This document shows, in pieces, positions 3,536 to 59,471 of a stretch of 64,000 bases of DNA (position 1 is its first letter; each line of letters opens with the position of its first letter). A program made the position numbers and the translations under genes. The notes under the pieces were generated by a model, which did not search any database, had not been told where the DNA came from, and worked only from the letters and a program-made list of their open reading frames with translations. Source of the DNA: Eledone cirrhosa (taxonomy: Eukaryota); contig OZ024741.1 in NCBI GenBank assembly GCA_964016885.1, forward strand, positions 207,824,001 to 207,888,000. The letters run 5' to 3'.

Positions 3536-6500
3536 TAATAATGATAAATTTGAAGACTAAAATCCAAAGAGGTCTCGATAAGGATAAATATATATTAAAT
3601 ATATAAGAACCGTAGAGCAAATATTTATTAAAATAACAGATTTAAGTTTAAGCAAAGAATCGCTGTTTTCACCCTTAACGCGATCTTCTGAAACTAACAA
3701 AGTCAATCTGTGAACGCAGCAGTGAATATTTCAAAAAACGTTGCAACCGGAGGAAGACAGGAAGACGATAATTTGGTTCGTGGAAACGTTCCCTGGCAAA
3801 TAACGGGAAAAAACGAATATATTACGTAATTATTTGGAGCGGTGAAAAATAATTACACAAGCAAAGACACAACCATGTTTATGGTATAAAAGAAGTCGTA
3901 AACTAATATTCTCTTAGGTGGTTCATAGAGACGTTCTCTGGCAATGAACGGAAAAAACGAAGATAATACGTCATATGTGGAGTGTGGAGAACAATTGCAC
4001 GCAAAGACAAAACCACGTAAATGGTATAACTGAAGTCGTAGACTAAAATTCTAAGTAGGAAACCGAATGATTCTCCGCTTCAGAGTTAAAAATAAATAAA
4101 ATAAAATACAGAGGTAATTGACATTAAACAAAATCATACACGCATCCAACTACGTACATACACAAGCATACGCGAAAACACTCGTCATAGGTATACAAAT
4201 ACACAACATATAAATATGTGTGTGTGTGTGTGCGTGTAAACAAATAATTAAATAAACATATATAAATAAATGAATACGTATATAACAAGCGCGCACACAT
4301 ACCTACATGTACATACCGAAATGTTCGGAGACGTACGTCAACCAAAACACGAAGTACACATATACACACACCCTACACACGTATGAACCCGCATACTCAC
4401 ATAGACGCAAAACTCACGTATACACATAACCAAAAGCATATGTACCAGAATATATAAAATATACGCCATAACATATACAATCAAATATACGTACGAGAAA
4501 GTATACATACCTTCAAAAAAACTTACAGGTAATATATACGTACCTATGCAAATAAGTAATGGTATAAACATAACATATACTTAGCTACAACATCAAGACG
4601 TAAAATATCCGCGTATAGATCGTACTATACGTTAGGGTATAATGTGGGGCTGTAATACAGGAACGTTTTGAGCAATTTATGTTTACAAGCTGAAATTGCC
4701 TCAGATTATTTGTTTAAGATGTGGTCTGTGGCGTAGAGGATTTCCAGGGCCTCAGCGGCGCAGAGGTCGCATGGTCTTTTATTTCCGTTATACGATCTAG
4801 CTCGGATCTCCCAGTGTAACTTATATTGGGTGTGGTTGTCTATTAGACTCCAGATATAAGCTGAAAGTGACGTCATATTCCTTCTTAGAGGGTAACGAAA
4901 ATAATGGGCATGCATGTAAAGACGCTGCTTGAATCTATTGGCGGTTAACCCTATGTAGGCCCTACGGGACGTGGGTGTTTCAACCTTACATTTGTAGACA
5001 ATGTTACTAGAGAGGCATTTCCCGGATAGGGGGCAATCAACCCGATTTCTACAATTACAGTTAGTACTAAATACAGGGTTACACGTGTTCCTACGGCTAG
5101 GTAGTTTAGCTAAATTTGAAGCTGTGATGTTATGTACAAGGTTAGGAGTCGTAGAGTAAGAAATTTTAATAGTATTTCTATTAAACATTATACTATATTT
5201 ACGTGTAGGGGGAAAATGCTTCGTAATAAAGGATAGAAAGATCTTAGCTAATGGTGTGGCCACCTCCATATTATATGGTGGGTTATACCATATAATGCGT
5301 CGGGATCTATTTCTTCTAGGTCTATTCTCGTACTCTGTATATGCTACCTTATCGACAAATCCACTCCGAGCAAGAGCTTCATTGTAATTTGTGGAATGGT
5401 CGTTGGAAATATGCTCGTTAGTAGATAGACGGGAAAGCCTCTAAGAAAAGTTTCTTACCAGGTTCTTGGTTATGCTGGCAGGATGGTTGGAATGCTTACT
5501 TATGTAATTAAGCGTATCATTCGGCTTTCTATACGGGTAAACAAGCCATTCGATAAATTGAGGGTAACGTCGAGGTAATTAATAACCGAGAGGTTGGCCT
5601 CAAACTGTATAGAGAGGTAATAGCCTTTAAAGAAGGCTGTGAGTTCTTTTCTGAACCTGTCGCAAGCACGTGGGCCGCACTTAGTCATGGTCAAAAGACC
5701 GTCATCACGGTACAAACCGCCGCCCATGTTGGGGAATTCTTCCTGGATAGAGAAAAGAAGGAAAAGGCCGATAAGATCAGTAACCTCCGCAGAATCGCTG
5801 GCGTCCATACTCACGTCGAATGGGTTACTATTATATTTTTTAATCCAAATAGAGTCGTCGAAATTAATCACCGACTTACGGGCATTGAGGATGACATCAA
5901 CTTCAAAATCCTTAACCACTGTAAGTGTTTTAGCGAAATTCATAGCTCTAAGGAGAAGTGGTAAAGTGATGGAGGAGTAGTAATTATTGATTTCGAATTG
6001 GATAAAACGGCAATGTTCCTTGTTGCATGTGCTGTTGAACCAATCAATCACCGCGAAAGAATTGTTCCACAGTGCAAAAGGGGCCAAACTTCTAATTTCA
6101 GGTATAATTCTATCAAGAATCCTTTTACTAATTCTACCTAAATCGGACTTCGTAGGGTTAATAAGCCGAATAGAGGGGTTGTTCGGAAAATTGGAATGTT
6201 GATCCTTCAGGGTAAAGTGGGGAGAAATAGTGCTCAGAGGTTCGGTCCGGTCCAGGATATTGAGATCAGAGGTGATTTTAAAGCCAGCATCGTTGATTTC
6301 ATTGATGACGCACCGATTAGTTTTACGGTAATCCTTAGTTACAGCATTATGTAGTAGTTGATGTTCAGTACTGCGGCCCACTTGATATAGATTGCCAGTT
6401 TTGTCGGGGTGGACGTGCACGGCATTAGAATCCTTAATAGAAAGAATTCTATTCTTCAGGTCCTGCTGGAAGGAATTGCTCCTATTCCGAAATTTGATAC

Positions 6501-7645
6501 TCCGTATGAGTTCCAAGACATCATTTTCGAAGGGTAGCAATGCTGGGTTGCACGGATGGTTATTATAGATTTTAAACCCAAATGTATCCTGTTTGTTGGC
6601 TGCTTTTCGCTGATTATCGAAATAGAAGGCACGCCAACGCAACCTTTTATTGAACGCGTCTGTTTTCTGTATCAGGAGTTTTAGGTATGTTTTCCTGCTT
6701 GGTATGGGTATGTTCTTTGTAGAAATATTCAGATGTTTTTTTCTGCATGATGCATATAAGTCAATAGAGAGCTCAACCGAGGGAGGCAAATAGTAATTAT
6801 AATAAATTTGAAGACTAAAATCCAAAGAGGGCTCGATAAGGATAAATATATATCAAATACATAAGAACCGTAGGGCAAATATTTATTAAAATAACAGATT
6901 AAAGTTTAAGCAAAGAATCGTTGCTTTCATCCGTAACGGGATCTTCTGTAACTAACAGAGTCAATCTGTGAACGCAGAAGTGAATATTTCAAAAAACGTT
7001 GCAACCAGAGGAAGACAGGAAGACGATACTTTGGTTCGTGGAAACGTTCCCTGGCAAAGAACGGGAAAAAACGAATATAATACGTAATTATTTGGAGCGG
7101 TGAAACAATTACACGCAAAGACAAAATGACGTTTATGGTATAAAAGAATTCGTAGACTAATATTCTCTTAGGTAGTTCATAGAGACGTTCTCTTTCAATG
7201 AACGGAAAAAACGAAGATAATACGTCATATGTGGAGCGTTGAGAACAATTGCACGCAAAGACAAAACCACGTAAATGGTATAACTGAAGTCGTAGACTAA
7301 AATTCTAACTAGGAAACCGAATGATTCTCCGCTTCAGAGTTAAGAATAAATAAAATAAAATACAGAGGTAATTGAAATTAAATAAATACATACACGCATC
7401 CAAATACGTACATACACAAGCATACGCGAAAACACTCGCCATAGGTATACAAATACACAACATATAAATATGTGTGTGTGTGTGTTTTCACGAACCAAAG
7501 TATCGTCTTCCTGTCTGCCTCCGGTTGCAACGTTTTTTTAAATATTCACTTCTGCGTTCGCAGATTGACTTTGTTAGTTTCAGAAGATCCCGTTAAGGGT
7601 GAAAGCAGCGATTCTTTGCTTAAACTTTAATCTGTTGTTTTAATT
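3531..7645 (-). mobile_element. Penelope-like retroelement 1 (Naiad-like): pLTR-ORF-pLTR plus inverted pLTR piece
   Basis: Direct repeats ~3531-4230 and ~6790-7484 flank the ORF. An inverted pLTR fragment lies at 7486-7645. (TA)n on both sides. Confidence 0.92.
4640..6730 (-). pseudogene. PLE reverse transcriptase + GIY-YIG endonuclease (frameshift ~5540, TAG ~5442, TAA ~4706)
   Basis: HPDKTGNLY, LYRDDGL, YLDVTLNL; after the frameshift YPYRKPND..SNHP, IIWYNPPY, CNCRNRVDCPLSGKCL, IVYKC..AYIGLT..FKQR. Confidence 0.93.
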
Positions 7646-12964: not shown

Positions 12965-14740
12965 GGGATGTTTAGGTATGTTTTCCTGCTTGTAGGGGTA
13001 TGTGCTTTGGGCACATAACATCACAGCTTCAAATTTAGCTAAACTACCTAGCCGTAGGAACATGTGTAACCCTGTAGCTAGTACTAACTGTAATTGTAGG
13101 AATCGGGTTGACTGCCCCCTATCCAGGAAATGCCCTCTTGTAACATTTTATCTACAAATGTAAGGTTGAAACACCCACGTCCCGTAGGGCCTACATAGGG
13201 TTAACCGCCAATAGGTTCAAGCAGCGTCGTTACATGAATACACATTCTTTTCTTAACCCTTTAAGAAGGAATATGACGTCACTTTCAGCTTACATCTGGA
13301 GTCGAAAAGACAACCACACCCAATATAAATTACACTGGGAGAACCTAGCTAAGGCTAGATCGTACAACTGTAATAAAAGACCATGTGGCCTATGCGCCGC
13401 TGAAGCCCTGCAAATACCCTACGCCAAAGATCGCATCTTAAACAAATAATCTGAGGCAATTTTGGCTTGTAAACATAACTTGCACAAAACTTTCCTGTAT
13501 TACAGCCCACATTATACCCTAACGGATAGTACGAACTATACGCAGATATTTTACGTCTTGATGTGTTAGCTAAGTATATGTTATGTTTATACCATTACTT
13601 ATTTGTATAGGTAAGTATATATTACCTGTATGTTTTGTGAAGGTTCGTATACTTTCTCGTACGTATATTTGCTTGTATATATTATGGTGTATATCTTATA
13701 TATACTGGTACATGTGCATATGGTTATGTGTATACGTGAGTTTTGCTTATGTGTGAGTATGCGGGTTCATACGTATGTAAGGTGGGTGTATATGTGTACT
13801 TTGTGTTTTGGTTGACGTTCGTCTGCGTACTTATGTGTATTTATAGGTGGTATGTGTGCGAGAGCGTTTATACGTATTTATGTGTGTATATTTATATACG
13901 TTTATATAATTATATGTATACACGCACACTCACACACACGCACACACACATATATATATATATATATTTTATATATGTTTTTATGTGTATTTGGTGTATA
14001 CGTTCGCATGTGTGCGGGTATATGCGTTGCGTGGGTTCTGTATGTGCGTGCGTTTTTTTTTGTTTTTTTTCGTACGTGCTTGTATTGGCTACCCATTGCG
14101 GATGTTTTCGCGTATGCTTGTGTGTGTACGTATATGGATGCGTGCATGTATATATTTAATTTCAATTACCTCTGTAATTTATTTACTTTATTCTTAACTC
14201 TGAAGCCGAGAATCATTCGGTTTCCTAATAGAATTTTAGTCTACGACTTCAGTTATACCATATACGTGGTTTTGTCTTTGCGTGTAATTGTTCTCAGCGC
14301 TCGACATAATGACTTATTATCTTCATTTTTTCCGTTCATTGCCAGAGAACGTCTCCACGTACCACCTAATAGAATATTAGTCTACGACTTCATTTACCAT
14401 AAACGTGGTTTTGTCTGTTCGTGTAATTGTTTTCACCGCTCCAAATTATAACGTATTATCTTTGTCTTTATCCGTTCTTTGCCAGGGAAAGTTTCCACGA
14501 ACCAAAGTATCGTCTTCCTGTCTTCCTTTGGTTGCAACGTTTTTTGAAATATTTACTTCTGCGTTCACAGATTGATTCTTTTAGTTTCAGAAGATCCCGT
14601 TAAGGGTGAAAGCAGCGATTCTTTGCTTAAACTTTAATCTGTTATTTTAATAAATATTTGCTCTACGGTTCTTATATATTTGATATATATTTATCCTTAT
14701 CGAGCCCTCTTTTGATTTTAGTCTTCAATTTTATTATTAT

Positions 14741-15331: not shown

Positions 15332-15589
15332 TTTAAATGATTGGAAATTTATACCATGCCTTCGGATCTTTATTTTGATACAAATACTCCGCTTTACATC
15401 ATCTAGCTGTTCCCATAAATGGAATTGGAGATATACAGAAGCGTGGAGAATTTAATATTGCTAACAAAAGTTTATTGGACAGTATGACACAACCAATAAT
15501 ACACATTACTATGTAACAACTTAAAGCTCCTAATTGAGCACTTAATGCTGTTAAGCAAAAAATATGATGGAGAAATTCTCGGTGAACTC

Positions 15590-18197
15590 TTCGCTTAAGG
15601 ACATCTCTATGCCTAGCATAAAAGTATTCACAAGTTTGGCGATAGGTAAATCGGACTCCTTTGTCCGTAGAATGCGTTAAAAGGCCTTCCACTTCGATAG
15701 AGGAACACCAACAAACCACACAGGGAGGGAACGTGTGGCATCGAGGGAAAATTCAAATCCAGAAGAAACCCACCATACAATAAGTACCTGGAGGAATTCG
15801 AAAATGAAATGACTAACATAGTATCCAACTTTAAGTTCAGGAAAAACCCACTCAGGAGAAAAGTCTACTTAAAACGACTGAACGGTGATCTAAGAAAACT
15901 AAAGAACTCGACCGGCATTCTGGTGCACGCGGATAAAACGAACAAACTATACGTTATGGATAGAGTAATCTATGACGACCTGAAAAAACTACAGGAAAAC
16001 TACACAGGCCAACCTGGATCTAATCAACACGGAGGCCAATAGCGTCATGACTAAACTGGGTATTGAAAATAAAACTGAGCCCTTCCATCCTAAAATTCTG
16101 AGGATTTTATTGAAAGACCACAAAATAAACTTTGAATCGTCAAGATCTGTCAGGCTAATAGGAATCGTGAGTAAAAACATCCTTGATAAAATAATCCCCA
16201 CTCTAGTTAGGAGATCGAAGCTTAAATTATGGTCAGGAACTAGTGAGGTAATTAACTGGTTTGAGAAATCGCAGAATAAGTTTATACAGTTTGATATCTC
16301 TAACTACTACTCTTCGATCTCTCCAACTCTTCTAGGTAAGGCTCTAAACTTTGCTAGCTTGCACACCAACCTTACATCTAAAGAAATTTACATTATTCTC
16401 CTAGTAGGAAAACCTTAATCGAGTTCAACGGAGACTTGTGGACTAGGAAAGACTGGCCGGACAATTTTGACATCACCATGGGATCCTAGGACTCAGCCCA
16501 GGTGACGGATCTGGTGGGCCTCTACATCTTCGACTGTCTTAGAGTGGAAATGCCCCACTTGGGAGGTGGCGCTTACCGTGACGACGTTTTGTTTACTCTG
16601 TCGTATCATAATAATAGTATGGTAGAGAAGGTGAGGAAAAAACTAAGCAAATTCTTCAACAACATAAACTTAAGTATAGTGTTTGAAGAAAACCTGAAGA
16701 TAGTTAATTTTCTAGATGTTACACTTAACCTCAATTCAGGACTCTTCCAACCCTACCACAAACCCAATGAGAAATTAAATTATGTCAACGCAAAATCAAA
16801 CCACCCTAGAATAATCACTAACGGCATTACAAAAGGCGTCTCTAGTAGAATTTCAGGACTATCTTCCAATGAAGATACATTCGATAGGATCTCAAATTAC
16901 TATAATAGCGCGGGGAATAGCGAGGGAATCTCATTCAAACGTCCCTTAGGTAGTAGTAGCAACATTGTCTGCGATAGCTTAGGCCAAAATAGTGACACTT
17001 TAGTTAACAGCAGGCGGGAGGCGAAGGAGGATCAATATAGACTTCATGTTGTATTGCCTCATAGTCCTAATGACGACGGTACCAATGAGAACAACCACCC
17101 AGGTACAAACACGGTGTCCGAGCACCATACAGCCAACAGAAACTTTAATTGTAACCTTAATTTTAGAGCTGATAAACCAACCGTTGAACGTAAAATAGAA
17201 CGGAGGTCGGGTAGAGGGAATAGGGACAAATGTACACCGCCCCGGAGACTTGGGACGATTCCGAACACCACCTGGACACCCCGGGGCATCATCGACCTAC
17301 AGGCAGTTATCAGTTCTAATAGACCAGTAGCAACCAAGGAGGCAGGTAACACTAGTATAGATAATAAGAACAAGAGTCATCGGACCAGAAAAATCCTGTG
17401 GTACAACATACTCCACCGGCCTGACCACCAGTATAGCTAAGCTTTTCTTTAGGGCCTTCGACAAATGCTTCCCTAGATCACACAAATACTATAAAATATA
17501 CAATAGGAATACCATCAAGCTGTCCTACTCCACAACCAGTAACATAGCTCAGAATATAGCTAAGATGAATTATAGTAGACTTAGGACAGCCCAGGGCGGG
17601 ATGAGGCATGGCAGAACTAATGGCAATTCTATGCATGAACAGACTCATACGCGTGAGGTGAGTCGGACTACCCCAACACCTGGGAACTTACCCATAGAGC
17701 AGACAAGAACTGAGACCAGACACCAGAGGCACCGTGGTTCCTCGGGAACTACCCCGGTCGGTAGCAGAAAATGTAATTGCAGGAACACAGCTTCTTGCCC
17801 CTTGGCTGGGAAATGCTTCACCAGAAACATAGTGTACGATTGTAAGGTCTCCACTTTAGATAGAACGTTCAGGTATGTTGGGGCGACTGCCACTGAATTT
17901 AAGGATAGATGGTATAATCACCGTCAGACCTTTAATATATTAGATAAAAAAATAGCACGGCGCTTTCTGAATTAGTCTGGAAGCTTAAACAACAGAATAT
18001 AGAGCACTCCTTATCCTGGTCCATAATTTGCTCAGCCCAGCCATATAACAGCAACACGGGCGTTTGTAATTTATGTATAGCTGAAACCTTTAATATAATT
18101 AGAGGCGGCCCCCTACTAATCAATAGGAGTGCGGACTCTTTCAGCACCAGCCAGCATAGAACATCGAAAACCTTCCTCAGGAATTTTAGTAAGTAAC
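15590..18197 (+). pseudogene. PLE RT + GIY-YIG, with several stops and frameshifts
   Basis: VHADKTNKLY, FIQFDISNYYSSI, AYRDDVL, FLDVTLNL, SNHP, RKILWYN, CNCRNTASCPLAGKCF, IVYDC..YVGATATEFKDRWYNH. Confidence 0.93.
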
Positions 18198-20008: not shown

Positions 20009-20084
<76 letters not shown>

Positions 20085-20236
20085 CGATCAAAAGATGGCT
20101 AAAAGAATTCAAAGTATTTTATTATGCGCATTTCAAAAACAAATATCATCATGGGATGATATTTGCGTTCTCATCAGATAAAATAGGGAAACATGATATG
20201 AAGTTTAAAAAACATTTGTGAGCAGTGAAGTTTTAA
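20085..20236 (-). mobile_element. HHR element, family C fragment
   Basis: Homologous to 26968-27120. Reverse complement reads ttttat-CTGATGA...GAAA-tgcgca-TA-ataaaa. Confidence 0.8.
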
Positions 20237-22199: not shown

Positions 22200-23060
22200 G
22201 TGTGTCACACTAAGAGTTTTCTCCTTCAAAGTATAATCCCCCTGGAGTATGTATTTTCTCCTTCAAAGTATAATCCCCCTGGAGTATGTAACTGTAATCT
22301 TAGCTCTCTGCAGCGAACAAACTTTTTTCTTCATAATTTTATATACATGTCCTCTTTTTCAGGTCGTCAAGCAATGAGCACAGAGCAACGAACAAACTTG
22401 AAGTTTCTGGTAGGGTTGGGGAAAACTCCGTCAGAAGCACTGGGATGCTGCAGCAAGTGTATGGACGATGTCACGCTCACGTGTTTTTGAGTGGTGCAAG
22501 ATGACCGCAGGAGCGGAAGGCTCTCAACAACCAGGACTGAGGTCAACGTTGAGCGCGTCAGGCAGATGGTGCGTAGCGATCGTCGGCCGACTGTTCGACT
22601 GATGGCAAATGAGCTGGGCATGAATCGGGACAGCGCCTGGAAGATTCTCACTGAAGATTTGGACATGCGGAAAGTCTGCGCGAATATGGTGCCAAAACTG
22701 CTGAACGATGACCAGAAGGGTCGACGCATGCAAGTGTGCCAGGACATCCTCGAGCGTCTTGAAACCGAATCAGACTTGCTAGGGACAGTCATCACCGGTG
22801 ATGAGTCATGGATCTTCGAGTACGACACGGAGGGGACCCGTTTTGAAGACGTGGACGACATCAAAAAGGCCGTGACGACGGAACTACGGAGGATCCCGGA
22901 AGAATCCTTCCAGGAGTGCATGCAAGTGTGGCAGAAAAGGATGGAAAAGTGCATTAGCCTCCAGAGTATATTACTTTGAAGGAGAAAATTCTAAGTGTGA
23001 AGTTTGGGTTTGAAATAAATCTTTTGTGACATCAGTCCTGGAACTTTTCTAACACACCTC

Positions 23061-23062: not shown

Positions 23063-23093
<31 letters not shown>

Positions 23094-23205
23094 TAGAATA
23101 TTCGAAAATATTCTGTATGTTTATAATAAACATTTTGAAGACCTAATCGCTATAGAATAGAATACGTCACGTATTACAATTAGATTCTCGATAAAAGCAA
23201 GGGAA

Positions 23206-23248
23206 GTAATCTACGCGTTTCATTCTCGTTAGAAATCATCAGGACTAC
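23206..23248 (-). ncRNA. Type I hammerhead ribozyme (first of 7 on -, every 310 bp to 25066-25108)
   Basis: Reverse complement reads gtagtc-CTGATGA-tttct aacg agaat-GAAA-cgcg-TA-gattac. Confidence 0.93.
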
Positions 23249-25345
23249 ATATCCAGTGCTTTTATCGAGAATGACACAGCTAGAGACTTATAGAATACTT
23301 AGCTGTGTACAGGAACTGGTTTGAAAGAGCGGTTGCCGGTCCGGCAGAAATTAGAAATTGGAATAAATGCTCTGAAATAGCGATATATATGTGAATATAG
23401 ACATAGAATATTCGAAAATATTCTGTATGTTTATAATAAACATTTTGAAGACCTAATCGCTATAGAATAGAATACGTCACGTATTACAATTAGATTCTCG
23501 ATAAAAGCAAGGGAAGTAATCTACGCGTTTCATTCTCGTTAGAAATCATCAGGACTACATATCCAGTGCTTTTATCGAGAATGACACAGCTAGAGACTTA
23601 TAGAATACTTAGCTGTGTACAGGAACTGGTTTGAAAGAGCGGTTGCCGGTCCGGCAGAAATTAGAAATTGGAATAAATGCTCTGAAATAGCGATATATAT
23701 GTGAATATAGACATAGAATATTCGAAAATATTCTGTATGTTTATAATAAACATTTTGAAGACCTAATCGCTATAGAATAGAATACGTCACGTATTACAAT
23801 TAGATTCTCGATAAAAGCAAGGGAAGTAATCTACGCGTTTCATTCTCGTTAGAAATCATCAGGACTACATATCCAGTGCTTTTATCGAGAATGACACAGC
23901 TAGAGACTTATAGAATACTTAGCTGTGTACAGGAACTGGTTTGAAAGAGCGGTTGCCGGTCCGGCAGAAATTAGAAATTGGAATAAATGCTCTGAAATAG
24001 CGATATATATGTGAATATAGACATAGAATATTCGAAAATATTCTGTATGTTTATAATAAACATTTTGAAGACCTAATCGCTATAGAATAGAATACGTCAC
24101 GTATTACAATTAGATTCTCGATAAAAGCAAGGGAAGTAATCTACGCGTTTCATTCTCGTTAGAAATCATCAGGACTACATATCCAGTGCTTTTATCGAGA
24201 ATGACACAGCTAGAGACTTATAGAATACTTAGCTGTGTACAGGAACTGGTTTGAAAGAGCGGTTGCCGGTCCGGCAGAAATTAGAAATTGGAATAAATGC
24301 TCTGAAATAGCGATATATATGTGAATATAGACATAGAATATTCGAAAATATTCTGTATGTTTATAATAAACATTTTGAAGACCTAATCGCTATAGAATAG
24401 AATACGTCACGTATTACAATTAGATTCTCGATAAAAGCAAGGGAAGTAATCTACGCGTTTCATTCTCGTTAGAAATCATCAGGACTACATATCCAGTGCT
24501 TTTATCGAGAATGACACAGCTAGAGACTTATAGAATACTTAGCTGTGTACAGGAACTGGTTTGAAAGAGCGGTTGCCGGTCCGGCAGAAATTAGAAATTG
24601 GAATAAATGCTCTGAAATAGCGATATATATGTGAATATAGACATAGAATATTCGAAAATATTCTGTATGTTTATAATAAACATTTTGAAGACCTAATCGC
24701 TATAGAATAGAATACGTCACGTATTACAATTAGATTCTCGATAAAAGCAAGGGAAGTAATCTACGCGTTTCATTCTCGTTAGAAATCATCAGGACTACAT
24801 ATCCAGTGCTTTTATCGAGAATGACACAGCTAGAGACTTATAGAATACTTAGCTGTGTACAGGAACTGGTTTGAAAGAGCGGTTGCCGGTCCGGCAGAAA
24901 TTAGAAATTGGAATAAATGCTCTGAAATAGCGATATATATGTGAATATAGACATAGAATATTCGAAAATATTCTGTATGTTTATAATAAACATTTTGAAG
25001 ACCTAATCGCTATAGAATAGAATACGTCACGTATTACAATTAGATTCTCGATAAAAGCAAGGGAAGTAATCTACGCGTTTCATTCTCGTTAGAAATCATC
25101 AGGACTACATATCCAGTGCTTTTATCGAGAATGACACAGCTAGAGACTTATAGAATACTTAGCTGTGTACAGGAACTGTCGAATATTCTATGTCTATATT
25201 CACATATATATCGCTATTTCAGAGCATTTATTCCAATTTCTAATTTCTGCCGGACCGGCAACCGCTCTTTCAAACCAGTTCCTGTACACAGCTAAGTATT
25301 CTATAAGTCTCTAGCTGTGTCATTCTCGATAAAAGCACTGGATAT

Positions 25346-25388
25346 GTAGTCCTGATGATTTCTAACGAGAATGAAACGCGTAGATTAC
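25346..25388 (+). ncRNA. Type I hammerhead ribozyme (first of 5 on +, every 310 bp to 26586-26628)
   Basis: gtagtc-CTGATGA-tttct aacg agaat-GAAA-cgcg-TA-gattac. Stem I is extended by a 16-bp helix attctcgataaaagca/tgcttttatcgagaat. Confidence 0.95.
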
Positions 25389-26867
25389 TTCCCTTGCTTT
25401 TATCGAGAATCTAATTGTAATACGTGACGTATTCTATTCTATAGCGATTAGGTCTTCAAAATGTTTATTATAAACATACAGAATATTTTCGAATATTCTA
25501 TGTCTATATTCACATATATATCGCTATTTCAGAGCATTTATTCCAATTTCTAATTTCTGCCGGACCGGCAACCGCTCTTTCAAACCAGTTCCTGTACACA
25601 GCTAAGTATTCTATAAGTCTCTAGCTGTGTCATTCTCGATAAAAGCACTGGATATGTAGTCCTGATGATTTCTAACGAGAATGAAACGCGTAGATTACTT
25701 CCCTTGCTTTTATCGAGAATCTAATTGTAATACGTGACGTATTCTATTCTATAGCGATTAGGTCTTCAAAATGTTTATTATAAACATACAGAATATTTTC
25801 GAATATTCTATGTCTATATTCACATATATATCGCTATTTCAGAGCATTTATTCCAATTTCTAATTTCTGCCGGACCGGCAACCGCTCTTTCAAACCAGTT
25901 CCTGTACACAGCTAAGTATTCTATAAGTCTCTAGCTGTGTCATTCTCGATAAAAGCACTGGATATGTAGTCCTGATGATTTCTAACGAGAATGAAACGCG
26001 TAGATTACTTCCCTTGCTTTTATCGAGAATCTAATTGTAATACGTGACGTATTCTATTCTATAGCGATTAGGTCTTCAAAATGTTTATTATAAACATACA
26101 GAATATTTTCGAATATTCTATGTCTATATTCACATATATATCGCTATTTCAGAGCATTTATTCCAATTTCTAATTTCTGCCGGACCGGCAACCGCTCTTT
26201 CAAACCAGTTCCTGTACACAGCTAAGTATTCTATAAGTCTCTAGCTGTGTCATTCTCGATAAAAGCACTGGATATGTAGTCCTGATGATTTCTAACGAGA
26301 ATGAAACGCGTAGATTACTTCCCTTGCTTTTATCGAGAATCTAATTGTAATACGTGACGTATTCTATTCTATAGCGATTAGGTCTTCAAAATGTTTATTA
26401 TAAACATACAGAATATTTTCGAATATTCTATGTCTATATTCACATATATATCGCTATTTCAGAGCATTTATTCCAATTTCTAATTTCTGCCGGACCGGCA
26501 ACCGCTCTTTCAAACCAGTTCCTGTACACAGCTAAGTATTCTATAAGTCTCTAGCTGTGTCATTCTCGATAAAAGCACTGGATATGTAGTCCTGATGATT
26601 TCTAACGAGAATGAAACGCGTAGATTACTTCCCTTGCTTTTATCGAGAATCTAATTGTAATACGTGACGTATTCTATTCTATAGCGATTAGGTCTTCAAA
26701 ATGTTTATTATAAACATACAGAATATTTTCGAATATTCTATGTCTATATTCACATATATATCGCTATTTCAGAGCATTTATTCCAATTTATATATATATA
26801 TATATATACACATAAATATATGTGCTTGTGTGTGTATGTATATATATATGTATATATGTATATATAA

Positions 26868-27245
<378 letters not shown>

Positions 27246-27358
27246 ATTATGTATACTCCAGTCCTACAAACTGTAGAGTGCTTCTTATCCGATATCTGCA
27301 TTGCTTTATTGTACTACAATAAAACTCACCTCCTACATATATATATATATATATATAT

Positions 27359-29692: not shown

Positions 29693-29725
<33 letters not shown>

Positions 29726-29731
<6 letters not shown>

Positions 29732-32700
29732 TATGAAGAGAGAAGAAACATTTAGATATAATTAGTAATAAAATGTATCATACCTAAACTGTTCCTAAAT
29801 TCCTCGACTACGTAGTTTCGTGGCATAAACAAAAACAATATATCAAAGATATAGAGTTCTTGCGAGGTCTGCCGACTTATCAAGAGGATACCTCATTTTA
29901 CTAGTCTCAAGAACGCGTCTACACGACGTGAGAAAGAATCCCAAAAGGCGGAGGGGGAGATAGTCACGCGATATAACGGTCGAGAAACAGAGCTAAGCCT
30001 CTTATAACCACGAAGAAAATACCACGGAGGCGGAGGGGGTATTCATATCGAGGCCGTAGAAGAGGTAGTGAAGAAGGCGAGAAGTATGAGTAATGGAAGC
30101 TTTCCAGTTGTCTCCACACTTCAAAGATTGCTCGACCAGAGGGAGTTATTAATATATTAAGAAACACACAGATACATGCGGACACACACATATATACATG
30201 AATGCATCCGCACCCAACTGTGAGTTAAGAGTGCCAACTTCACCGATGTTGCTCTATGAATGACTGGGACAGACCAATTCAGTTTGAACCAGACTGAACC
30301 AGTATCAGAGTTAAAAATACATTATGAAGAGAGAAGAAACATTTAGATATAATTAGTAATAAAATGTATCATACCTAAACTGTTCCTAAATTCCTCGACT
30401 ACGTAGTTTCGTGGCATAAACAAAAACAATATATCAAAGATATAGAGTTCTTGCGAGGTCTGCCGACTTATCAAGAGGATACCTCATTTTACTAGTCTCA
30501 AGAACGCGTCTACACGACGTGAGAAAGAATCCCAAAAGGCGGAGGGGGAGATAGTCACGCGATATAACGGTCGAGAAACAGAGCTAAGCCTCTTATAACC
30601 ACGAAGAAAATACCACGGAGGCGGAGGGGGTATTCATATCGAGGCCGTAGAAGAGGTAGTGAAGAAGGCGAGAAGTATGAGTAATGGAAGCTTTCCAGTT
30701 GTCTCCACACTTCAAAGATTGCTCGACCAGAGGGAGTTATTAATATATTAAGAAACACACAGATACATGCGGACACACACATATATACATGAATGCATCC
30801 GCACCCAACTGTGAGTTAAGAGTGCCAACTTCACCGATGTTGCTCTATGAATGACTGGGACAGACCAATTCAGTTTGAACCAGACTGAACCAGTATCAGA
30901 GTTAAAAATACATTATGAAGAGAGAAGAAACATTTAGATATAATTAGTAATAAAATGTATCATACCTAAACTGTTCCTAAATTCCTCGACTACGTAGTTT
31001 CGTGGCATAAACAAAAACAATATATCAAAGATATAGAGTTCTTGCGAGGTCTGCCGACTTATCAAGAGGATACCTCATTTTACTAGTCTCAAGAACGCGT
31101 CTACACGACGTGAGAAAGAATCCCAAAAGGCGGAGGGGGAGATAGTCACGCGATATAACGGTCGAGAAACAGAGCTAAGCCTCTTATAACCACGAAGAAA
31201 ATACCACGGAGGCGGAGGGGGTATTCATATCGAGGCCGTAGAAGAGGTAGTGAAGAAGGCGAGAAGTATGAGTAATGGAAGCTTTCCAGTTGTCCCCACA
31301 CTTCAAAGATTGCTCGACCAGAGGGAGTTATTAATATATTAAGAAACACACAGATACATGCGGACACACACATATATACATGAATGCATCCGCACCCAAC
31401 TGTGAGTTAAGAGTGCCAACTTCACCGATGTTGCTCTATGAATGACTGGGACAGACCAATTCAGTTTGAACCAGACTGAACCAGTATCAGAGTTAAAAAT
31501 ACATTATGAAGAGAGAAGAAACATTTAGATATAATTAGTAATAAAATGTATCATACCTAAACTGTTCCTAAATTCCTCGACTACGTAGTTTCGTGGCATA
31601 AACAAAAACAATATATCAAAGATATAGAGTTCTTGCGAGGTCTGCCGACTTATCAAGAGGATACCTCATTTTACTAGTCTCAAGAACGCGTCTACACGAC
31701 GTGAGAAAGAATCCCAAAAGGCGGAGGGGGAGATAGTCACGCGATATAACGGTCGAGAATAGCTCTGTTTCTCGACCGTTATATCGCGTGACTATCTCCC
31801 CCTCCGCCTTTTGGGATTCTTTCTCACGTCGTGTAGACGCGTTCTTGAGACTAGTAAAATGAGGTATCCTCTTGATAAGTCGGCAGACCTCGCAAGAACT
31901 CTATATCTTTGATATATTGTTTTTGTTTATGCCACGAAACTACGTAGTCGAGGAATTTAGGAACAGTTTAGGTATGATACATTTTATTACTAATTATATC
32001 TAAATGTTTCTTCTCTCTTCATAATGTATTTTTAACTCTGATACTGGTTCAGTCTGGTTCAAACTGAATTGGTCTGTCCCAGTCATTCATAGAGCAACAT
32101 CGGTGAAGTTGGCACTCTTAACTCACAGTTGGGTGCGGATGCATTCATGTATATATGTGTGTGTCCGCATGTATCTGTGTGTTTCTTAATATATTAATAA
32201 CTCCCTCTGGTCGAGCAATCTTTGAAGTGTGGGGACAACTGGAAAGCTTCCATTACTCATACTTCTCGCCTTCTTCACTACCTCTTCTACGGCCTCGATA
32301 TGAATACCCCCTCCGCCTCCGTGGTATTTTCTTCGTGGTTATAAGAGGCTTAGCTCTGTTTCTCGACCGTTATATCGCGTGACTATCTCCCCCTCCGCCT
32401 TTTGGGATTCTTTCTCACGTCGTGTAGACGCGTTCTTGAGACTAGTAAAATGAGGTATCCTCTTGATAAGTCGGCAGACCTCGCAAGAACTCTATATCTT
32501 TGATATATTGTTTTTGTTTATGCCACGAAACTACGTAGTCGAGGAATTTAGGAACAGTTTAGGTATGATACATTTTATTACTAATTATATCTAAATGTTT
32601 CTTCTCTCTTCATAATGTATTTTTAACTCTGATACTGGTTCAGTCTGGTTCAAACTGAATTGGTCTGTCCCAGTCATTCATAGAGCAACATCGGTGAAGT

Positions 32701-33370
32701 TGGCACTCTTAACTCACAGTTGGGTGCGGATGCATTCATGTATATATGTGTGTGTCCGCATGTATCTGTGTGTTTCTTAATATATTAATAACTCCCTCTG
32801 GTCGAGCAATCTTTGAAGTGTGGGGACAACTGGAAAGCTTCCATTACTCATACTTCTCGCCTTCTTCACTACCTCTTCTACGGCCTCGATATGAATACCC
32901 CCTCCGCCTCCGTGGTATTTTCTTCGTGGTTATAAGAGGCTTAGCTCTGTTTCTCGACCGTTATATCGCGTGACTATCTCCCCCTCCGCCTTTTGGGATT
33001 CTTTCTCACGTCGTGTAGACGCGTTCTTGAGACTAGTAAAATGAGGTATCCTCTTGATAAGTCGGCAGACCTCGCAAGAACTCTATATCTTTGATATATT
33101 GTTTTTGTTTATGCCACGAAACTACGTAGTCGAGGAATTTAGGAACAGTTTAGGTATGATACATTTTATTACTAATTATATCTAAATGTTTCTTCTCTCT
33201 TCATAATGTATTTTTAACTCTGATACTGGTTCAGTCTGGTTCAAACTGAATTGGTCTGTCCCAGTCATTCATAGAGCAACATCGGTGAAGTTGGCACTCT
33301 TAACTCACAGTTGGGCGCGGATGCATTCATGTATATATGTGTGTGTCCGCATGTATCTGTGTGTTTCTTA

Positions 33371-33378
<8 letters not shown>
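29726..33378. repeat. Inverted tandem array of a 591-bp monomer with variant hammerhead: ~3.4 units on - (29726-31759), ~2.7 units on + (31760-33378)
   Basis: 591-bp period (29731, 30322, 30913, 31504). Fold-back apex cggtcgagaa-tagctctgt-ttctcgaccg. (TA)n at both outer ends. Confidence 0.97.
31867..31954 (+). ncRNA. Type I hammerhead with U3-A8 core (also 32458, 33049 on +; 29801, 30392, 30983, 31574 on -)
   Basis: tcctc-TTGATAA-[gtcggca..gcaagaac tc tatatc ttt gatata tt gtttttgt..tgccac]-GAAA-ctacgtag-TC-gagga. Confidence 0.85.
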
Positions 33379-33454
<76 letters not shown>

Positions 33455-38300: not shown

Positions 38301-38350
38301 TAACCCTAACCCTAACCCTAACGTTAACGCTAACCCTAACCCTAACCCTA
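38301..38350. repeat. Interstitial telomeric repeat (TAACCC)n, ~8 units, 2 degenerate
   Basis: taaccctaaccctaaccctaacgttaacgctaaccctaaccctaacccta. Confidence 0.9.
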
Positions 38351-40125: not shown

Positions 40126-40429
40126 ATCACACATCAATCTAAAACCACTTTTCATATGTTGATTTAAAACTGCACTATCCACAAGTGTTTTTTAGCCTTC
40201 ATATCATGTTCTCCTGTTTTATCTGATGAAAACACAAATATTATTGCATGATGATGTTTGTTTTTGAAATGCGCATAATAAAATACATGGAACTCCTTTA
40301 ACCATCTTTTGATCTTATATATATAAATATATATATATATATAAACTATAATAAAGTAAGAAGCGTGGGACTGCGTACGGTTTATAATTTTTTATCCCCT
40401 TAGTAAAATAAGTTGGATTACTTTGAATA

Positions 40430-43529: not shown

Positions 43530-45255
43530 CGAAGGAAATGTGGTAAGGAACCAGGTGGACCATAACGCACCAAAGTACTCAATACTTAGGGTAGTAGAGT
43601 GGGTAATAGGAACGAGTAGGACCCCGACGGCTGAGCTCAAGCCGTTTCGACGGCTAATTCTGGACTAAATGAACATTTTTATCCTGGTATATGAATAGCC
43701 GAGCTTCTCAGGGGGTAATTCCAACACAGACATACTTTCCAAAGCCCGGCCCGGCGTCATGCCACCACACTTTTGGGCCATATCTGGGACCTCAAAGATA
43801 ACAATATTACCTATGATCTCACTTGGAGCTTACTGTCCAAAGCCAACTCCTACACGGGAGGACGCCGTCCGTGCAATTTGTGCTCGGAGGAAACTTTACA
43901 AATGCTGTTTTAGACGGACCAACTCCTAAACAAGAAAGACGAACTGGTAACTGCATGCAAACACAGATTGCGTAGGACTTACCTCGCCCTCAAACCCCAT
44001 AATGACCCGGGGGGGGGGGTAGACAGGGGCTGTAACACCCCACTTGCCGACTTTGTAATGGGTAACCGCTGCTTGCAAAGGTAGACGTAAGATCTTCTTT
44101 TATATCTTTTTATCGTTTCCTCTATATTCCCCGCATCCCTTCCTAGTCCTTCCACCACCGTCCTCCTCCTTTGTCGTCGTCCTTTTCACTTTCTCGCCCA
44201 CCCGAGGCAGCCCCTCGGTCCTTTGTAGCCTCAGTACCCCCACCCCCATCCCCTATTCTATGATAGAATTGGCCGACTCCGCTTTTTATAGCAGATGTGA
44301 TAGATTCCAGATACTTGCTTTCTTATTCGATGGCTGCCCCATTTCCGTGCTTCCTACATTTTTTAGTGGTATCTCTGCTTTAATCTCTCGTATATCAGTA
44401 TTTATTTTTTGGGGGGTGGGGGATTCTGAATAAATTATCCATATCAAATTTTTCATATACTTCGTACGAGCATTTATGTAGTTTGCACTAGAATTTTTGT
44501 ATCGTAGCGGCACCCTTAGAGATAGTATTAGTATTCATTTTCGGGATTCTGAATTATTATTTCGTATTAGTTTATTTTTTGCACTGGGTGGTTGCTGGCC
44601 TTGTGCCTAGGGTAGAAACATTTATTTTGTATTAGTTTCGGGACTCTGAATTATTATTTCGTGGTAGTTTCTTTAGTATTTTGGCTCCCCACTTGTTGAC
44701 CTGTCACCGTAAGATATACTCGGTTGATTACTACTAACTCTTAAAATGGTCTCATTACAATTCCGTCCCACCTAGTAAACTTTTCTATAGTTTAGCAGTA
44801 CCAGTGAGAGACTTGATGATTGTGGTTAGGAAATAGTAACCAGAAATTGTTTTTTTATATTTTTAACATTCTTGGTATTCTTCTATATATTTACTCCATA
44901 TTGATTTACTTATTGTTTCGACTTCCTCCCCCTCCCCCTCCCTAGTATACTTGCTTGACCTCCTGCCCTGCTGTAGTTGGCACTATCAACGCACGACTGG
45001 GTTTCCTCCACTCTCTCTCCCTCTTTCTTCTACTGGCAGGTTCAGCTACTCCTTCCTTCCACAAATTGCCATGATAGAATTATGTGTCTCAACAACAAAC
45101 TTTTGAACAATCCTTGTGACAATCACTTTTACCATATATGGAATAACCCCCTGAGAAGCTCGGCTATTCATATACCAGGATAAAAATTTTCATTTAGTCC
45201 AGAATTAGCCGTCGAAACGGCTTGAGCTCAGCCGTCGGGATCCTACTCATTCCTA
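43528..45255 (+). mobile_element. PLE family F: inverted pLTR (43528-43720) + GIY-YIG C-terminus + 3' UTR + HHR (45146-45240)
   Basis: LLGHIWDLKDNNITYDLTW..RRPCNLCSEE..LLNKKDELVTACKH. 45142-45255 is inverted at 43605-43720. Confidence 0.85.
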
Positions 45256-45279
45256 TATATATATATATATATATATATA

Positions 45280-45890
45280 GGAAAAGGTTCAGGACCCCGA
45301 CGACAGAGCTCAAGCCGTTTCGACGGCTATTTCTGGACTAAATTAAAGAAGAAAAAATCTAGACATTAGTGGAGAGCCGACCAGGGCGTGTAACTGCCCT
45401 GATAGATCTACTTGCCCCCTCAACAACAGATGCCGAGAACGTAACGTGATCTACCAATGCAACGTGAGGACGAAAAACTCCAACAAAATTTATAACGGAT
45501 TAACTGCCTGTGACTTTAAGACCCGGCTCTACCAACACCGCATATGTTCAGAAACCCGGCCCAGCGACATGCCACTACACTTTCGGGCCACATCTGGGAC
45601 CTCCAAGATAATGACATCATATACGATCTTACTTGGAGCTTACTTCCCAGGGAAGATGCCATCAGTGTAACTTATGCTCGGAGGAAACGATACAAATGCT
45701 GTTTACGAAGGAACAACTCCTAAATAAAAAAAGACGAATTTGTAATCACATGTAAACATCGATTGCGTAGGACTTACCTTCCTCGGATGGGTAGAAAATG
45801 GCTGCAACATCTTTCTTTTCCCCACTTGCCGAACAAGATAGGGGAAACCCCAGCATACATAGGTAGATGTAATACTTTTCTTATATATAA
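45280..45890 (+). mobile_element. Second family F fragment (inverted pLTR piece + GIY-YIG)
   Basis: CNCPDRSTCPLNNRC..VIYQCNVRTKNSNKIYNGLTACDFKTRLYQH. Confidence 0.85.
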
Positions 45891-52569: not shown

Positions 52570-52625
52570 ACTGCCTGATGAGGTCATAGCCATTCAATGG
52601 CTATCATCGAAATATATATAGCAGT
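52570..52625 (+). ncRNA. Intact family A hammerhead (in element ~52135-52672)
   Basis: actgc-CTGATGA-ggtcatagccat tca atggctatcatc-GAAA-tatata-TA-gcagt. Confidence 0.92.
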
Positions 52626-57739: not shown

Positions 57740-59471
57740 TTCGAAGGCTATTTCTGGACTAAATTAGATAAATAGCCGAACTTTTCAAGGGCTAACTCCA
57801 TATATGGGAAGATTCTAGTTGTCAAAAGGATTGGTAAAAATTTCTTGTAAACACAATTAAATCTTTCATGGCGGTGGGTGGGGGTGGCTGAACTTGCCTG
57901 TAGAACAATGAGGGAGAGGGTGGAGCCATCAAGCGTTGAAAGTGAATTCTATACAGCAAATTCTAAGGAGTGTGGTTAGCTAGAAAGCAGGCGAAAAAAG
58001 AATTCAGGAGGAATCTGAGAGTGGGAAGTTATAAAATTAAAAAATTAATAAATTTAATTAAAAAATTATTAAATAATTGTTTCTACTTTAGGCACAAGGC
58101 CAGCAATTATCCAGTGCATTACTGGTACTTTATTTTATCGACCCCAAAAACCTAGAGTCTAAAACAGCTGCTATAATTTTAGGTGGTATTGCGTTTTCGG
58201 CCAATGCTATATAGAATTTACTGAGGTGGGGGTACTGAGGCTACAAAAGCCCGGTGGGCTGTATCAGGGTAAGCGAAAGAGGAAAAAAGAAAAGGAATAG
58301 GAGGGGTAGTGGAAGGAATTGAGAAGAAGAGATAAAGGGAAAGAAGAAAATAAGTACAGCTACCTATGTATGCTGGGGTTTCCCCTATCTTGTTCGGCAA
58401 GTGGGGAAAAGAAAGATGTTACAGCCATTTTCTACCCACCCGGGTCATGAGGGGGTTTGAGGGCGAGGTGAGTCCTATGGAATCGGTGTTTACATGCGGT
58501 TACAAGTTCGTCTTTTCTGTTTAGGAGTTGGTCCTTCGTAAACAGCATTTGTATCGTTTCCTCCGAGCATAAGTTACACGGACGGCGTCTTCCCGTGTAG
58601 GAGTTAACCCTGGAAAGTAAGATCCAAGTAAGATGGTATGTGATGTTATTATCGGGTCGGGTTTCTAAACGTATGTCGATGTTAAAGTCACAAGCGGTTA
58701 ATCCTCTATAGGCTCTGTTGGAGTTTTCCGCCCTTACGTTGCATTGGTAGATTACGTTACGTTCTTGGTATCTGTTGTTGAGGGGGCACGTAGATCTATC
58801 AGGGCAGTTATACCTCCTGGTCGGCTCTAATGTTTAGGTTGTTTCTTCCATAGGAGTTGAGTTTTTTGTTTTTGAGGAGGCGATGTTTTGTGCGAAGTTG
58901 GGTGTAGTGCTGTAGGAGAGTTTGATAATGTTTTTGTTGATTATGTTGTGGTAGCGGTGTTGTGGTGGGAAGTGTTTTTCGAGGAGCCTAAAGAAGATTT
59001 TCCCGATTGGTGTTGCAACCTCGTCATTGTGGGGAGGGTTGAACCACGTTACGTGGCGTGAGTGGCGGCGTCGACTGCTGGTTCTAGTTAGCCTAATTTC
59101 ATCCATACTCCTTAGAATTTGTTATATAGAATTAATTTTCAACGCTTGACCGGCTCCACCCACTCCCTCATTGTTCTACAGGCAAGTTCACCCACCTCAT
59201 CCCCACCCATTGCCATGAAAGATTTAATTGTGTTTACAAGAAATGTTGACCAATCCTTTTGACAACTACAATCTTCCCGTATATGGAATTACCCCTTGAA
59301 AAGTTCGGCTATTTATTACCACGCTAAAAATCTAATTTAGTCCAGAAATAGCCGTCGAAACGGCTTGAGCTCTGCCGTCGTGGTCTTGAACATTTTCCTA
59401 TTACCCACTCTACTACCCTAAGGACTATGGTGCGTTATGGTCCACATGGTTCCTTACGACACTTTCTTCGT

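What the first reader, a model, noticed from the sequence alone, without database searches (positions are those of the whole stretch)
29726..33378. Second palindromic array: 591-nt monomer with a compensatory U3-A8 hammerhead core
Seen: 7 identical motifs tcctc-TTGATAA-stem II-GAAA-ctacgtag-TC-gagga, and a tight fold-back apex with a 9-nt spacer at 31760-31768. Known: C3 and G8 form a Watson-Crick pair in the active HHR, and U3-A8 is a tolerated rare covariation. Both positions change together here, which argues for selection on cleavage. A CTGANGA pattern search would miss this family. The unit is longer than the metazoan retrozyme monomers I recall.
Basis: partly seen in the sequence, partly recalled or inferred. 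Interest (0 to 1): 0.85.

Follow-up and report, generated by a model that had tools for sequence, protein, structure and literature searches.

The report
Two-armed retrozyme with swapped hammerhead core
This is one young copy of a very abundant non-coding repeat with a predicted self-cutting RNA motif (its base swap is already published), and its two back-to-back arms end at two different fixed points, which likely records a Penelope-type enzyme copying one RNA, probably a circle, onto both ends of a DNA break.

Summary
In detail: a 591-nt unit, seven identical type I hammerhead motifs with a U3-A8 core, two head-to-head arms between (TA)n tracts. It is one young insertion of a non-autonomous retrozyme family with thousands of copies (about 7,300 cores). 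U3-A8 is published for Penelope-element hammerheads. No C3-G8 relative was found, and the free position N7 is just as invariant, so the swap alone does not show selection. 591 nt lies within published sizes. The near-perfect apex is chance (2 of 20 loci). The informative feature is the ends. Two-armed insertions pair one end at unit position 261 with one at 426 (20 of 21 fetched loci, 26 of 26 pairs in a second sample, none of like type), and private variants are shared by both arms. That is the Penelope 'tail', here 165 nt, and it suggests both sides of one break primed on one RNA, probably circular. Cleavage, expression and the partner element are untested. The scan reported this family (e1-9590809) and this model for other families before.

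The parts
29693..29728 (.). (TA)n target tract, left
29726..31759 (-). Left arm, 3.44 units; its 3' (outer) end is at unit position 261 and its 5' stop at unit position 1 (unit position 1 = window 31769)
31760..33378 (+). Right arm, 2.74 units; 5' stop at unit position 583, 3' (outer) end at unit position 426-428
31759..31768 (.). Head-to-head junction of the two arms, no overlap; the 9-nt 'spacer' is the offset between the two 5' stops
33371..33450 (.). (TA)n target tract, right
31867..31954 (+). Type I hammerhead, U3-A8 core, 5-bp stem I, long bulged stem II, palindromic stem III; predicted cut after 31949
   Evidence: cleavage not tested
32458..32545 (+). Hammerhead copy; predicted cut after 32540
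33049..33136 (+). Hammerhead copy; predicted cut after 33131
31574..31661 (-). Hammerhead copy
30983..31070 (-). Hammerhead copy
30392..30479 (-). Hammerhead copy
29801..29888 (-). Hammerhead copy
31950..32540 (+). One complete cut-to-cut 591-nt monomer; non-coding (longest stop-free frame 86 aa), 41% GC, strongly folded as a circle
   Evidence: -173.6 kcal/mol against -131.2 +/- 5.1 for 30 shuffles, z = -8.3
31950..32029 (+). Long hairpin after the cut site that takes up the 3' strand of stem I and ends near the first inferred reverse-transcription start (unit 261, 80 nt after the cut)
   Evidence: predicted fold
32030..32194 (+). 165-nt 'tail' between the two family-wide end points (unit 262-426); present at the outer end of one arm only

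Best explanation
This is a young insertion of an abundant protein-free repeat whose two head-to-head arms end at two different fixed sites; it is likely a retrozyme whose RNA, predicted to be cut by the hammerhead and probably closed into a 591-nt circle, was likely copied by a Penelope-type reverse transcriptase onto both ends of one cut in a (TA)n tract. Shown: family size, (TA)n targets, the two end points 165 nt apart, their one-of-each pairing, variable 5' stops, and variants shared by both arms. Inferred: arrays are transcribed; tandem hammerheads cut during transcription, helped by pairing of the palindromic stem III between neighbours; the monomer is ligated and refolds so that the ribozyme is switched off; a PLE protein (Hydra clade is the best candidate) cuts both strands of (TA)n; one 3' end primes at unit 261 and the other at unit 426 of the same RNA; both enzymes run round the template for variable lengths; the two cDNA ends are joined head to head, often over a few matching bases. 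The palindrome is a by-product of insertion, not a functional hairpin.
For: Family: 851 candidates, best 40 at 97-100% identity; 2,506 end-261/(TA) and 1,085 end-426/(TA) junctions, controls 0; 7,428 core hits against 112 control. Pairing: of 40 loci examined, 21 are two-armed; 20 of 21 pair 261 with 426, one pairs 261 with a non-TA end at 60, none is like with like. On C1:1-104.6 Mb, 26 of 26 head-to-head pairs are mixed, P about 2e-10 if ends were drawn independently; one locus is shared with the first sample. The 81%-identical sister subfamily keeps both sites, 10 of 11 two-armed loci mixed. The 310-nt family of this window: 12 of 13 mixed. One template: 9 of 21 two-armed loci carry non-majority variants fixed in every covering copy of both arms (19 variants), and no site has the arms fixed for different letters. 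Only 1 of 40 5' stops lies near the cut site, so copying runs through it. Literature: a PLE protein nicks and extends both strands and starts at two internal sites that bound the genomic 'tail', the first 85-92 nt after the hammerhead cut by my arithmetic (PMC11167929); here it is 80 nt. Head-to-head inversion with a one-sided tail is the PLE signature (PMC8557442, PMC3846280). Hydra-clade PLEs insert in (TA)n, and a young family with open frames up to about 830 aa and the DKT, RW(R) and CxCX5C motifs is present. Structure: 13 of 146 confident pairs broken in the sister against 26.1 +/- 3.5 expected, 1 of 2,000 permutations; one stem I pair occurs as U-A, U-G and C-G.
Against: Cleavage, transcription and circles were not tested. 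The active fold is not the predicted ground state: 7.4 kcal/mol above it, with a stem I pair probability of 0.5% or less. The hammerhead alignment shows no covariation above its shuffle control. U3 and A8 are no more invariant than N7. In vitro, a PLE used unprocessed RNA, did not need its ribozyme, and showed no strand difference in start site. Eight of nine Xenopus retrozyme dimers did not cleave. Four loci have variants in some but not all copies (L036, L054, L067 and this window at unit 465), which a single circle does not predict without template switching or later exchange. The arm-discordance test needed two copies per arm and so had power at few loci. One like-with-like pair occurs in the 310-nt family, and the small element at 27002-27207 ends at the same site on both arms. 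In some loci the second arm is foreign sequence (L043, L064, L067). No autonomous PLE sharing the unit was found. Target-site duplications cannot be read inside (TA)n.
Confidence: 0.65

Rival explanations
1. Same PLE two-site priming, but on an uncut linear multimeric transcript of a young, uniform source array; the ribozyme is weak or dispensable and no circle is involved.
For: Unprocessed RNA was the main substrate of a PLE in vitro. The active fold is disfavoured. Four loci show partial variants. Copying through the cut site fits this too.
Against: Source arrays gather single-copy changes (66 singletons over 40 loci), yet daughters are uniform with private variants fixed across up to 10 copies in both arms, as expected if one unit was the template. 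The hammerhead and the overall fold are kept across 19% divergence.
Confidence: 0.22
2. Fold-back self-priming: one cDNA arm is made, its end folds back, and the first arm is copied to give the palindrome (the first reader's 'fold-back apex'; self-priming was proposed for PLEs in PMC3846280).
For: This locus and L039 have near-mirror junctions. Shared variants in both arms follow naturally.
Against: 18 of 20 junctions are not near-mirror, median offset 221 nt. Either arm can be the longer (261 arm longer in 14 of 20) and lengths are uncorrelated. Copy-back gives no reason for strict one-of-each ends.
Confidence: 0.06
3. A satellite made by DNA-level amplification (unequal crossing-over, inversion, gene conversion) of a solo PLE terminal repeat; the hammerhead is a passenger.
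For: Proposed as a route to tandem retrozymes in bioRxiv 10.64898/2026.07.22.740005. Two adjacent copies here share a variant (unit 465), which may be local exchange.
Against: Thousands of dispersed loci share two exact end points against (TA)n and have variable 5' stops. That is the signature of target-primed reverse transcription, not of local amplification.
Confidence: 0.07

Closest known systems
Metazoan non-LTR retrozymes (Cervera and de la Pena 2020, PMC7229834; Li, Clavereau and Pollet 2026, bioRxiv 10.64898/2026.07.22.740005)
   Same: Non-coding tandem units with one type I hammerhead each, GC under 45%, strongly self-paired monomer, dispersed high copy number, proposed PLE mobilisation through circles.
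   Different: 591 nt against 170-400 nt in the tested invertebrates (but within 51-972 bp predicted in vertebrates); U3-A8 core; two-armed multimeric insertions with fixed, unlike ends, which I did not see described in the parts read. RNA and cleavage are untested here.
PLE hammerheads, including the U3-A8 variant of Schistosoma Cercyon elements (Cervera and de la Pena 2014, PMC4209133)
   Same: U3-A8 core, short stem I (4-5 bp), large stem II with a bulged base near its 5' end, palindromic stem III suited to dimers, motifs in opposite orientation close together.
   Different: There mostly single motifs in PLE terminal repeats, without stem III; here a 3-bp stem III and multimeric arrays with no linked ORF.
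EN+ PLE insertion architecture: inverted 5'-truncated copy plus one-sided 30-40-bp tail from two RT start sites (PMC8557442, PMC3846280, PMC11167929)
   Same: Head-to-head arms, variable 5' stops, two 3' end points shortly downstream of the hammerhead, AT-rich or (TA)n targets.
   Different: The tail is 165 nt, both arms can be multimeric (6 of 20), and the two end types are paired one of each, whereas the tail is described as optional.
Twin priming of L1
   Same: Two target ends prime on one RNA and the cDNAs are joined over microhomology.
   Different: In L1 the second site is variable and the parts do not overlap; here both sites are fixed and the arms repeat the same sequence.

Membership tests
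Metazoan non-LTR retrozyme | Tandem units each with a type I hammerhead | tested here: met
   7 of 7 units that span the site carry the motif
Metazoan non-LTR retrozyme | No protein coding, GC under about 45-50% | tested here: met
   Longest stop-free frame 86 aa; GC 41%
Metazoan non-LTR retrozyme | Dispersed, high copy number | tested here: met
Metazoan non-LTR retrozyme | Highly self-paired monomer | tested here: met
   z = -8.3 against 30 shuffles; pairing kept in the sister subfamily
Metazoan non-LTR retrozyme | Expressed as linear and circular monomer RNA | not testable with these tools
   No run on record as RNA was available
Metazoan non-LTR retrozyme | Self-cleavage | not testable with these tools
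   Bench assay needed; the equilibrium fold disfavours the active form
Type I hammerhead ribozyme | Core with a 3-8 Watson-Crick pair, GAAA and NUH, and three helices | tested here: met
   U3-A8, GUC triplet; stems I, II base and III 100% paired in 12 of 12 aligned copies
Type I hammerhead ribozyme | Covariation supporting the helices | tested here: inconclusive
   One stem I pair seen as U-A, U-G and C-G, but no measure exceeds the shuffle control
Type I hammerhead ribozyme | Loop I-loop II tertiary contact | not tested
   Not modelled; loop 1 is poorly defined, as in PLE hammerheads
PLE-mobilised non-autonomous element | Head-to-head inverted, 5'-truncated arms | tested here: met
   21 of 40 loci two-armed
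PLE-mobilised non-autonomous element | Two 3' end points bounding a one-sided tail | tested here: met
   Unit 261 and 426; 165 nt rather than 30-40
PLE-mobilised non-autonomous element | Sequence shared with the terminal repeat of an autonomous PLE | tested here: inconclusive
   One young Hydra-type family examined (30 + 5 loci): only low-complexity matches; other PLE families were not examined
Autonomous PLE | ORF with RT and GIY-YIG endonuclease | tested here: not met
   No such ORF in the unit or array

The most novel reading that the evidence does not exclude
Each two-armed insertion is the record of a PLE reverse-transcriptase dimer sitting on one covalently closed 591-nt ribozyme RNA, priming both ends of a double-strand cut at two structure-defined sites 165 nt apart and rolling round the same circle twice over. 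The PLE 'tail' and inverted repeat would then be the obligatory product of paired priming on one template, and a circular RNA would be shown as the transposition intermediate.
Probability: 0.45. Interest if true: 0.72.

Novelty: new variant of a known kind. Interest (0 to 1): 0.5.

Why it matters
How PLEs form their tandem and inverted insertions is named as an open question (PMC8557442), and circles as templates were proposed in 2014 without direct evidence (PMC4209133). This family supplies thousands of near-identical natural products with a widely spaced, easily scored pair of start sites and private variants that mark the template. That makes the one-template, two-primer model testable by counting and in an existing type of in vitro assay. 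The U3-A8 core itself matters mainly as a reminder that standard searches undercount such families.

Tried and rejected
Rfam at gathering thresholds: no hit. Search for a C3-G8 relative: none with the family's flanks or with the same stem III and a long stem II. Counting single mutants as evidence of selection: rejected, because the control position N7 gave 9 against 11 (U3) and 15 (A8). Fixed variants avoid the hammerhead core and stems (1 of 47 variant positions within 44 positions, and that one is the bulge), too few to test. Covariation test on 12 aligned hammerheads: not above control; my first reading of a clean compensatory change from one locus (L059) was corrected when most sister copies showed U-G at that pair. 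Fold-back apex: rejected. Partner search: two loci join the unit head to head with Hydra-type ORF pieces (L062/L070, L067), but the two pieces are not the same family and the L070 family shares only low-complexity sequence with the unit and gave no clear hammerhead; a later insertion explains them equally well. Pfam and solved structures did not recognise the PLE proteins; the Hydra label rests on motifs read against PMC8557442 section 11. Sequencing runs: no RNA holder listed. Four runs of unknown kind were laid; one holds a single 621-nt contig (unit plus 30), which a tandem DNA repeat and a circle would both give, so it is not used as evidence. Junction offsets show no significant clustering (Rayleigh p about 0.15).

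Full report
Observation. The region 29726-33378 is two head-to-head tandem arrays of a 591-nt unit. Unit position 1 is set at window 31769. The left arm lies on the minus strand (29726-31759) and the right arm on the plus strand (31760-33378). The mirrored parts differ at 2 of 1,610 positions, and the DNA outside the two (TA)n tracts is not mirrored, so the palindrome is not a read artefact. Rfam reports nothing at gathering thresholds. The unit has no stop-free frame over 86 aa, is 41% GC, and folds as a circle far more stably than 30 shuffles (z = -8.3).

The family. The genome G000 (3.0 Gb) gave 851 candidate loci, of which 40 were scored, with full-length matches at 97-100% identity. A 14-letter core pattern gave 7,428 hits against 112 for the reversed control. 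I fetched the 39 other scored loci and mapped their arms with the window's. Nearly all 3' ends fall at one of two places, unit 261 or unit 426 (range 260-262 and 426-431), and run into (TA)n. Exact junction patterns gave 2,506 and 1,085 hits, controls 0; both are lower bounds because variants are missed. A sister subfamily with a 597-nt unit, 81% identical and with copies 94-97% alike, uses the same two sites.

The ends are paired one of each. Of 40 loci, 21 are two-armed; 20 join a 261 end to a 426 end, one (L044) has a 261 end and a non-TA end at unit 60, and none joins like with like. As a second sample I paired the 100 listed 261 junctions with the 44 listed 426 junctions on C1:1-104.6 Mb. 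All 26 head-to-head pairs within 8 kb were mixed (P about 2e-10 under independent draws); two further pairs were same-strand 261 duplicates; one locus is shared with the first sample. In the sister subfamily, 11 of 14 loci are two-armed and 10 of these are mixed, the other having one irregular end. In the 310-nt, C3-G8 family of this window, 12 of 13 head-to-head pairs are mixed and one is like with like (64 and 100 listed junctions). The small element at 27002-27207 ends at the same site on both arms, so the rule is not universal in this genome.

The apex is not a fold-back. Among the 20 regular two-armed loci, only 2 (this one and L039) have junctions within 10 nt of a mirror, against 0.7 expected; the median offset is 221 nt. 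Either arm can be longer (261 arm in 14 of 20), lengths are uncorrelated, both arms exceed one unit in 6 of 20, and junctions overlap by 2.6 nt on average as read from BLAST ends. The 9-nt spacer is the offset of two independent 5' stops.

Both arms come from one haplotype. In 9 of 21 two-armed loci, non-majority variants are fixed in every covering copy of both arms (19 variants; up to 10 of 10 copies in L046; three in this window). No site has the two arms fixed for different letters, though that test needed two copies per arm. Only 1 of 40 5' stops lies within 6 nt of the predicted cut. This fits repeated copying of one unit, that is, a circle. Against it, four loci have variants in some but not all copies, including unit 465 here, and some loci have foreign DNA as the second arm.

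The ribozyme. Stem I has 5 bp, stem II has a bulged third base and a long extension, and stem III is 3 bp within a 10-nt palindrome that pairs with a second copy at -14.3 kcal/mol. In 12 aligned copies from both subfamilies, stems I and III, the base of stem II and U3-A8 are fully paired; one stem I pair is U-A in 6, U-G in 4 and C-G in 2. No measure exceeds the shuffle control. Over the whole unit, 13 of 146 confident pairs are broken in the sister against 26.1 +/- 3.5 expected (1 of 2,000 permutations), so RNA structure is under selection. The active fold lies 7.4 kcal/mol above the predicted ground state, where both strands of stem I are held in other hairpins. This may mean poor cleavage, or cleavage only during transcription or with protein help. 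It would also keep a mature circle intact. That reading is inference.

Mechanism. A PLE protein from Anolis nicks AT-rich DNA and extends both strands, starts at two internal RNA sites that bound the genomic 'tail', and is predicted to be a dimer (PMC11167929, parts 1-2 of 4 read). Its first start lies 85-92 nt after the hammerhead cut by my arithmetic; unit 261 lies 80 nt after the cut here. Inverted 5'-truncated copies with a one-sided 30-40-bp tail are the PLE signature (PMC8557442, passages and section 11; PMC3846280, passages). I therefore infer that both ends of one cut prime on the same RNA, one at each site, and that the two cDNAs are joined at their far ends. Two primers cannot occupy one site of one molecule, which would explain the absence of like pairs. 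The same paper found the ribozyme dispensable in vitro and no strand difference in start site, which keeps the linear-multimer rival alive. Hydra-clade PLEs target (TA)n. Fragments lie in this window, and a young family with 97-99% identity over the region searched and open frames up to about 830 aa carries the clade's DKT, RW(R), CxCX5C, CxxC and CxH motifs. It shares no specific sequence with the unit, so the partner is unidentified.

Comparison with what is known. The class is known: metazoan non-LTR retrozymes (PMC7229834, passages) and their PLE link (bioRxiv 10.64898/2026.07.22.740005, parts 1-3 of 5), where units span 51-972 bp and 8 of 9 dimers did not cleave. U3-A8 is known in nature (PMC3088659, one passage) and in about 1,300 Schistosoma PLE hammerheads; that paper also proposes circles as templates for more-than-unit copies (PMC4209133, parts 1-2 of 4). 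Six literature searches showed no paper describing strict one-of-each ends on two-armed retrozyme arrays, but the library lacks most subscription journals, most listed papers were seen only as listings, and no supplements were read; supplements of the PLE papers may show tails of other lengths. L1 twin priming is recalled, not read. Earlier notes of this scan, consulted after my reading was formed, report the same model for other families in this genome and note this 591-nt family; they are not independent support. Their label 'cephalopod' was not tested here.

Verdict. The feature is real and belongs to a known kind. The headline base swap is published and does not by itself show selection. 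The value lies in the insertion footprint, which narrows how a PLE enzyme copies these RNAs. Confidence: PLE-mobilised retrozyme about 0.9; both arms primed on one RNA at two fixed sites about 0.8; circular template about 0.6-0.65. Interest 0.5.

Noticed in passing
window 23073-26789: Two-armed array of a 310-nt unit with a C3-G8 hammerhead; its two ends are about 42 nt apart in the unit and 12 of 13 pairs genome-wide are mixed.
   Followed up: partly
window 26960-27260; related copies at 20080-20230 and 40140-40320: Short element with a C3-G8 hammerhead; the copy near 27100 is head to head and both arms end at the same site, unlike the multimeric families.
   Followed up: partly
window 52570-52625; similar motifs in L072 near 4140 and L070: Another C3-G8 type I hammerhead of a different repeat family.
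   Followed up: no
window 4706-6852 (-), 13011-13446, 15582-18127 (+), 43719-45654, 58432-59052 (-): Broken Hydra-type PLE ORF fragments; the first is flanked by 140-bp repeats at 3774-4052 and 7044-7306.
   Followed up: partly
L124:3211-5652; tandem spacing about 6.9-7.4 kb in L124 and L127: Young Hydra-type PLE family with an open 814-aa frame and a very long (TA/TG)-rich 3' region; no hammerhead found by my search; not recognised by Pfam or solved structures.
   Followed up: partly
L067:3281-3505; L043:3390-3484; L064:3440-3501; L062:7016-7140: Retrozyme arms joined at their 5' stop to foreign sequence, in two cases PLE RT coding pieces; possibly capture of other RNAs by the second primer.
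   Followed up: partly
G000:C19:18237718 and 18238309; C5:39920686 and 39921283: Two adjacent units each with a non-A8 core (U3-G8 wobble; U3-U8 mismatch), the only cases among 15 where such a variant is shared by neighbouring copies.
   Followed up: no
window 22367-22990: Mariner-like transposase fragment (label from recall of the translation).
   Followed up: no
window 38301-38350: Interstitial (TTAGGG)n tract, about 8 copies on the minus strand.
   Followed up: no
runs X1, X2, X5, X6: The unit is held by runs labelled with three coded organisms; X6 and X5 also show sister-like variants.
   Followed up: no
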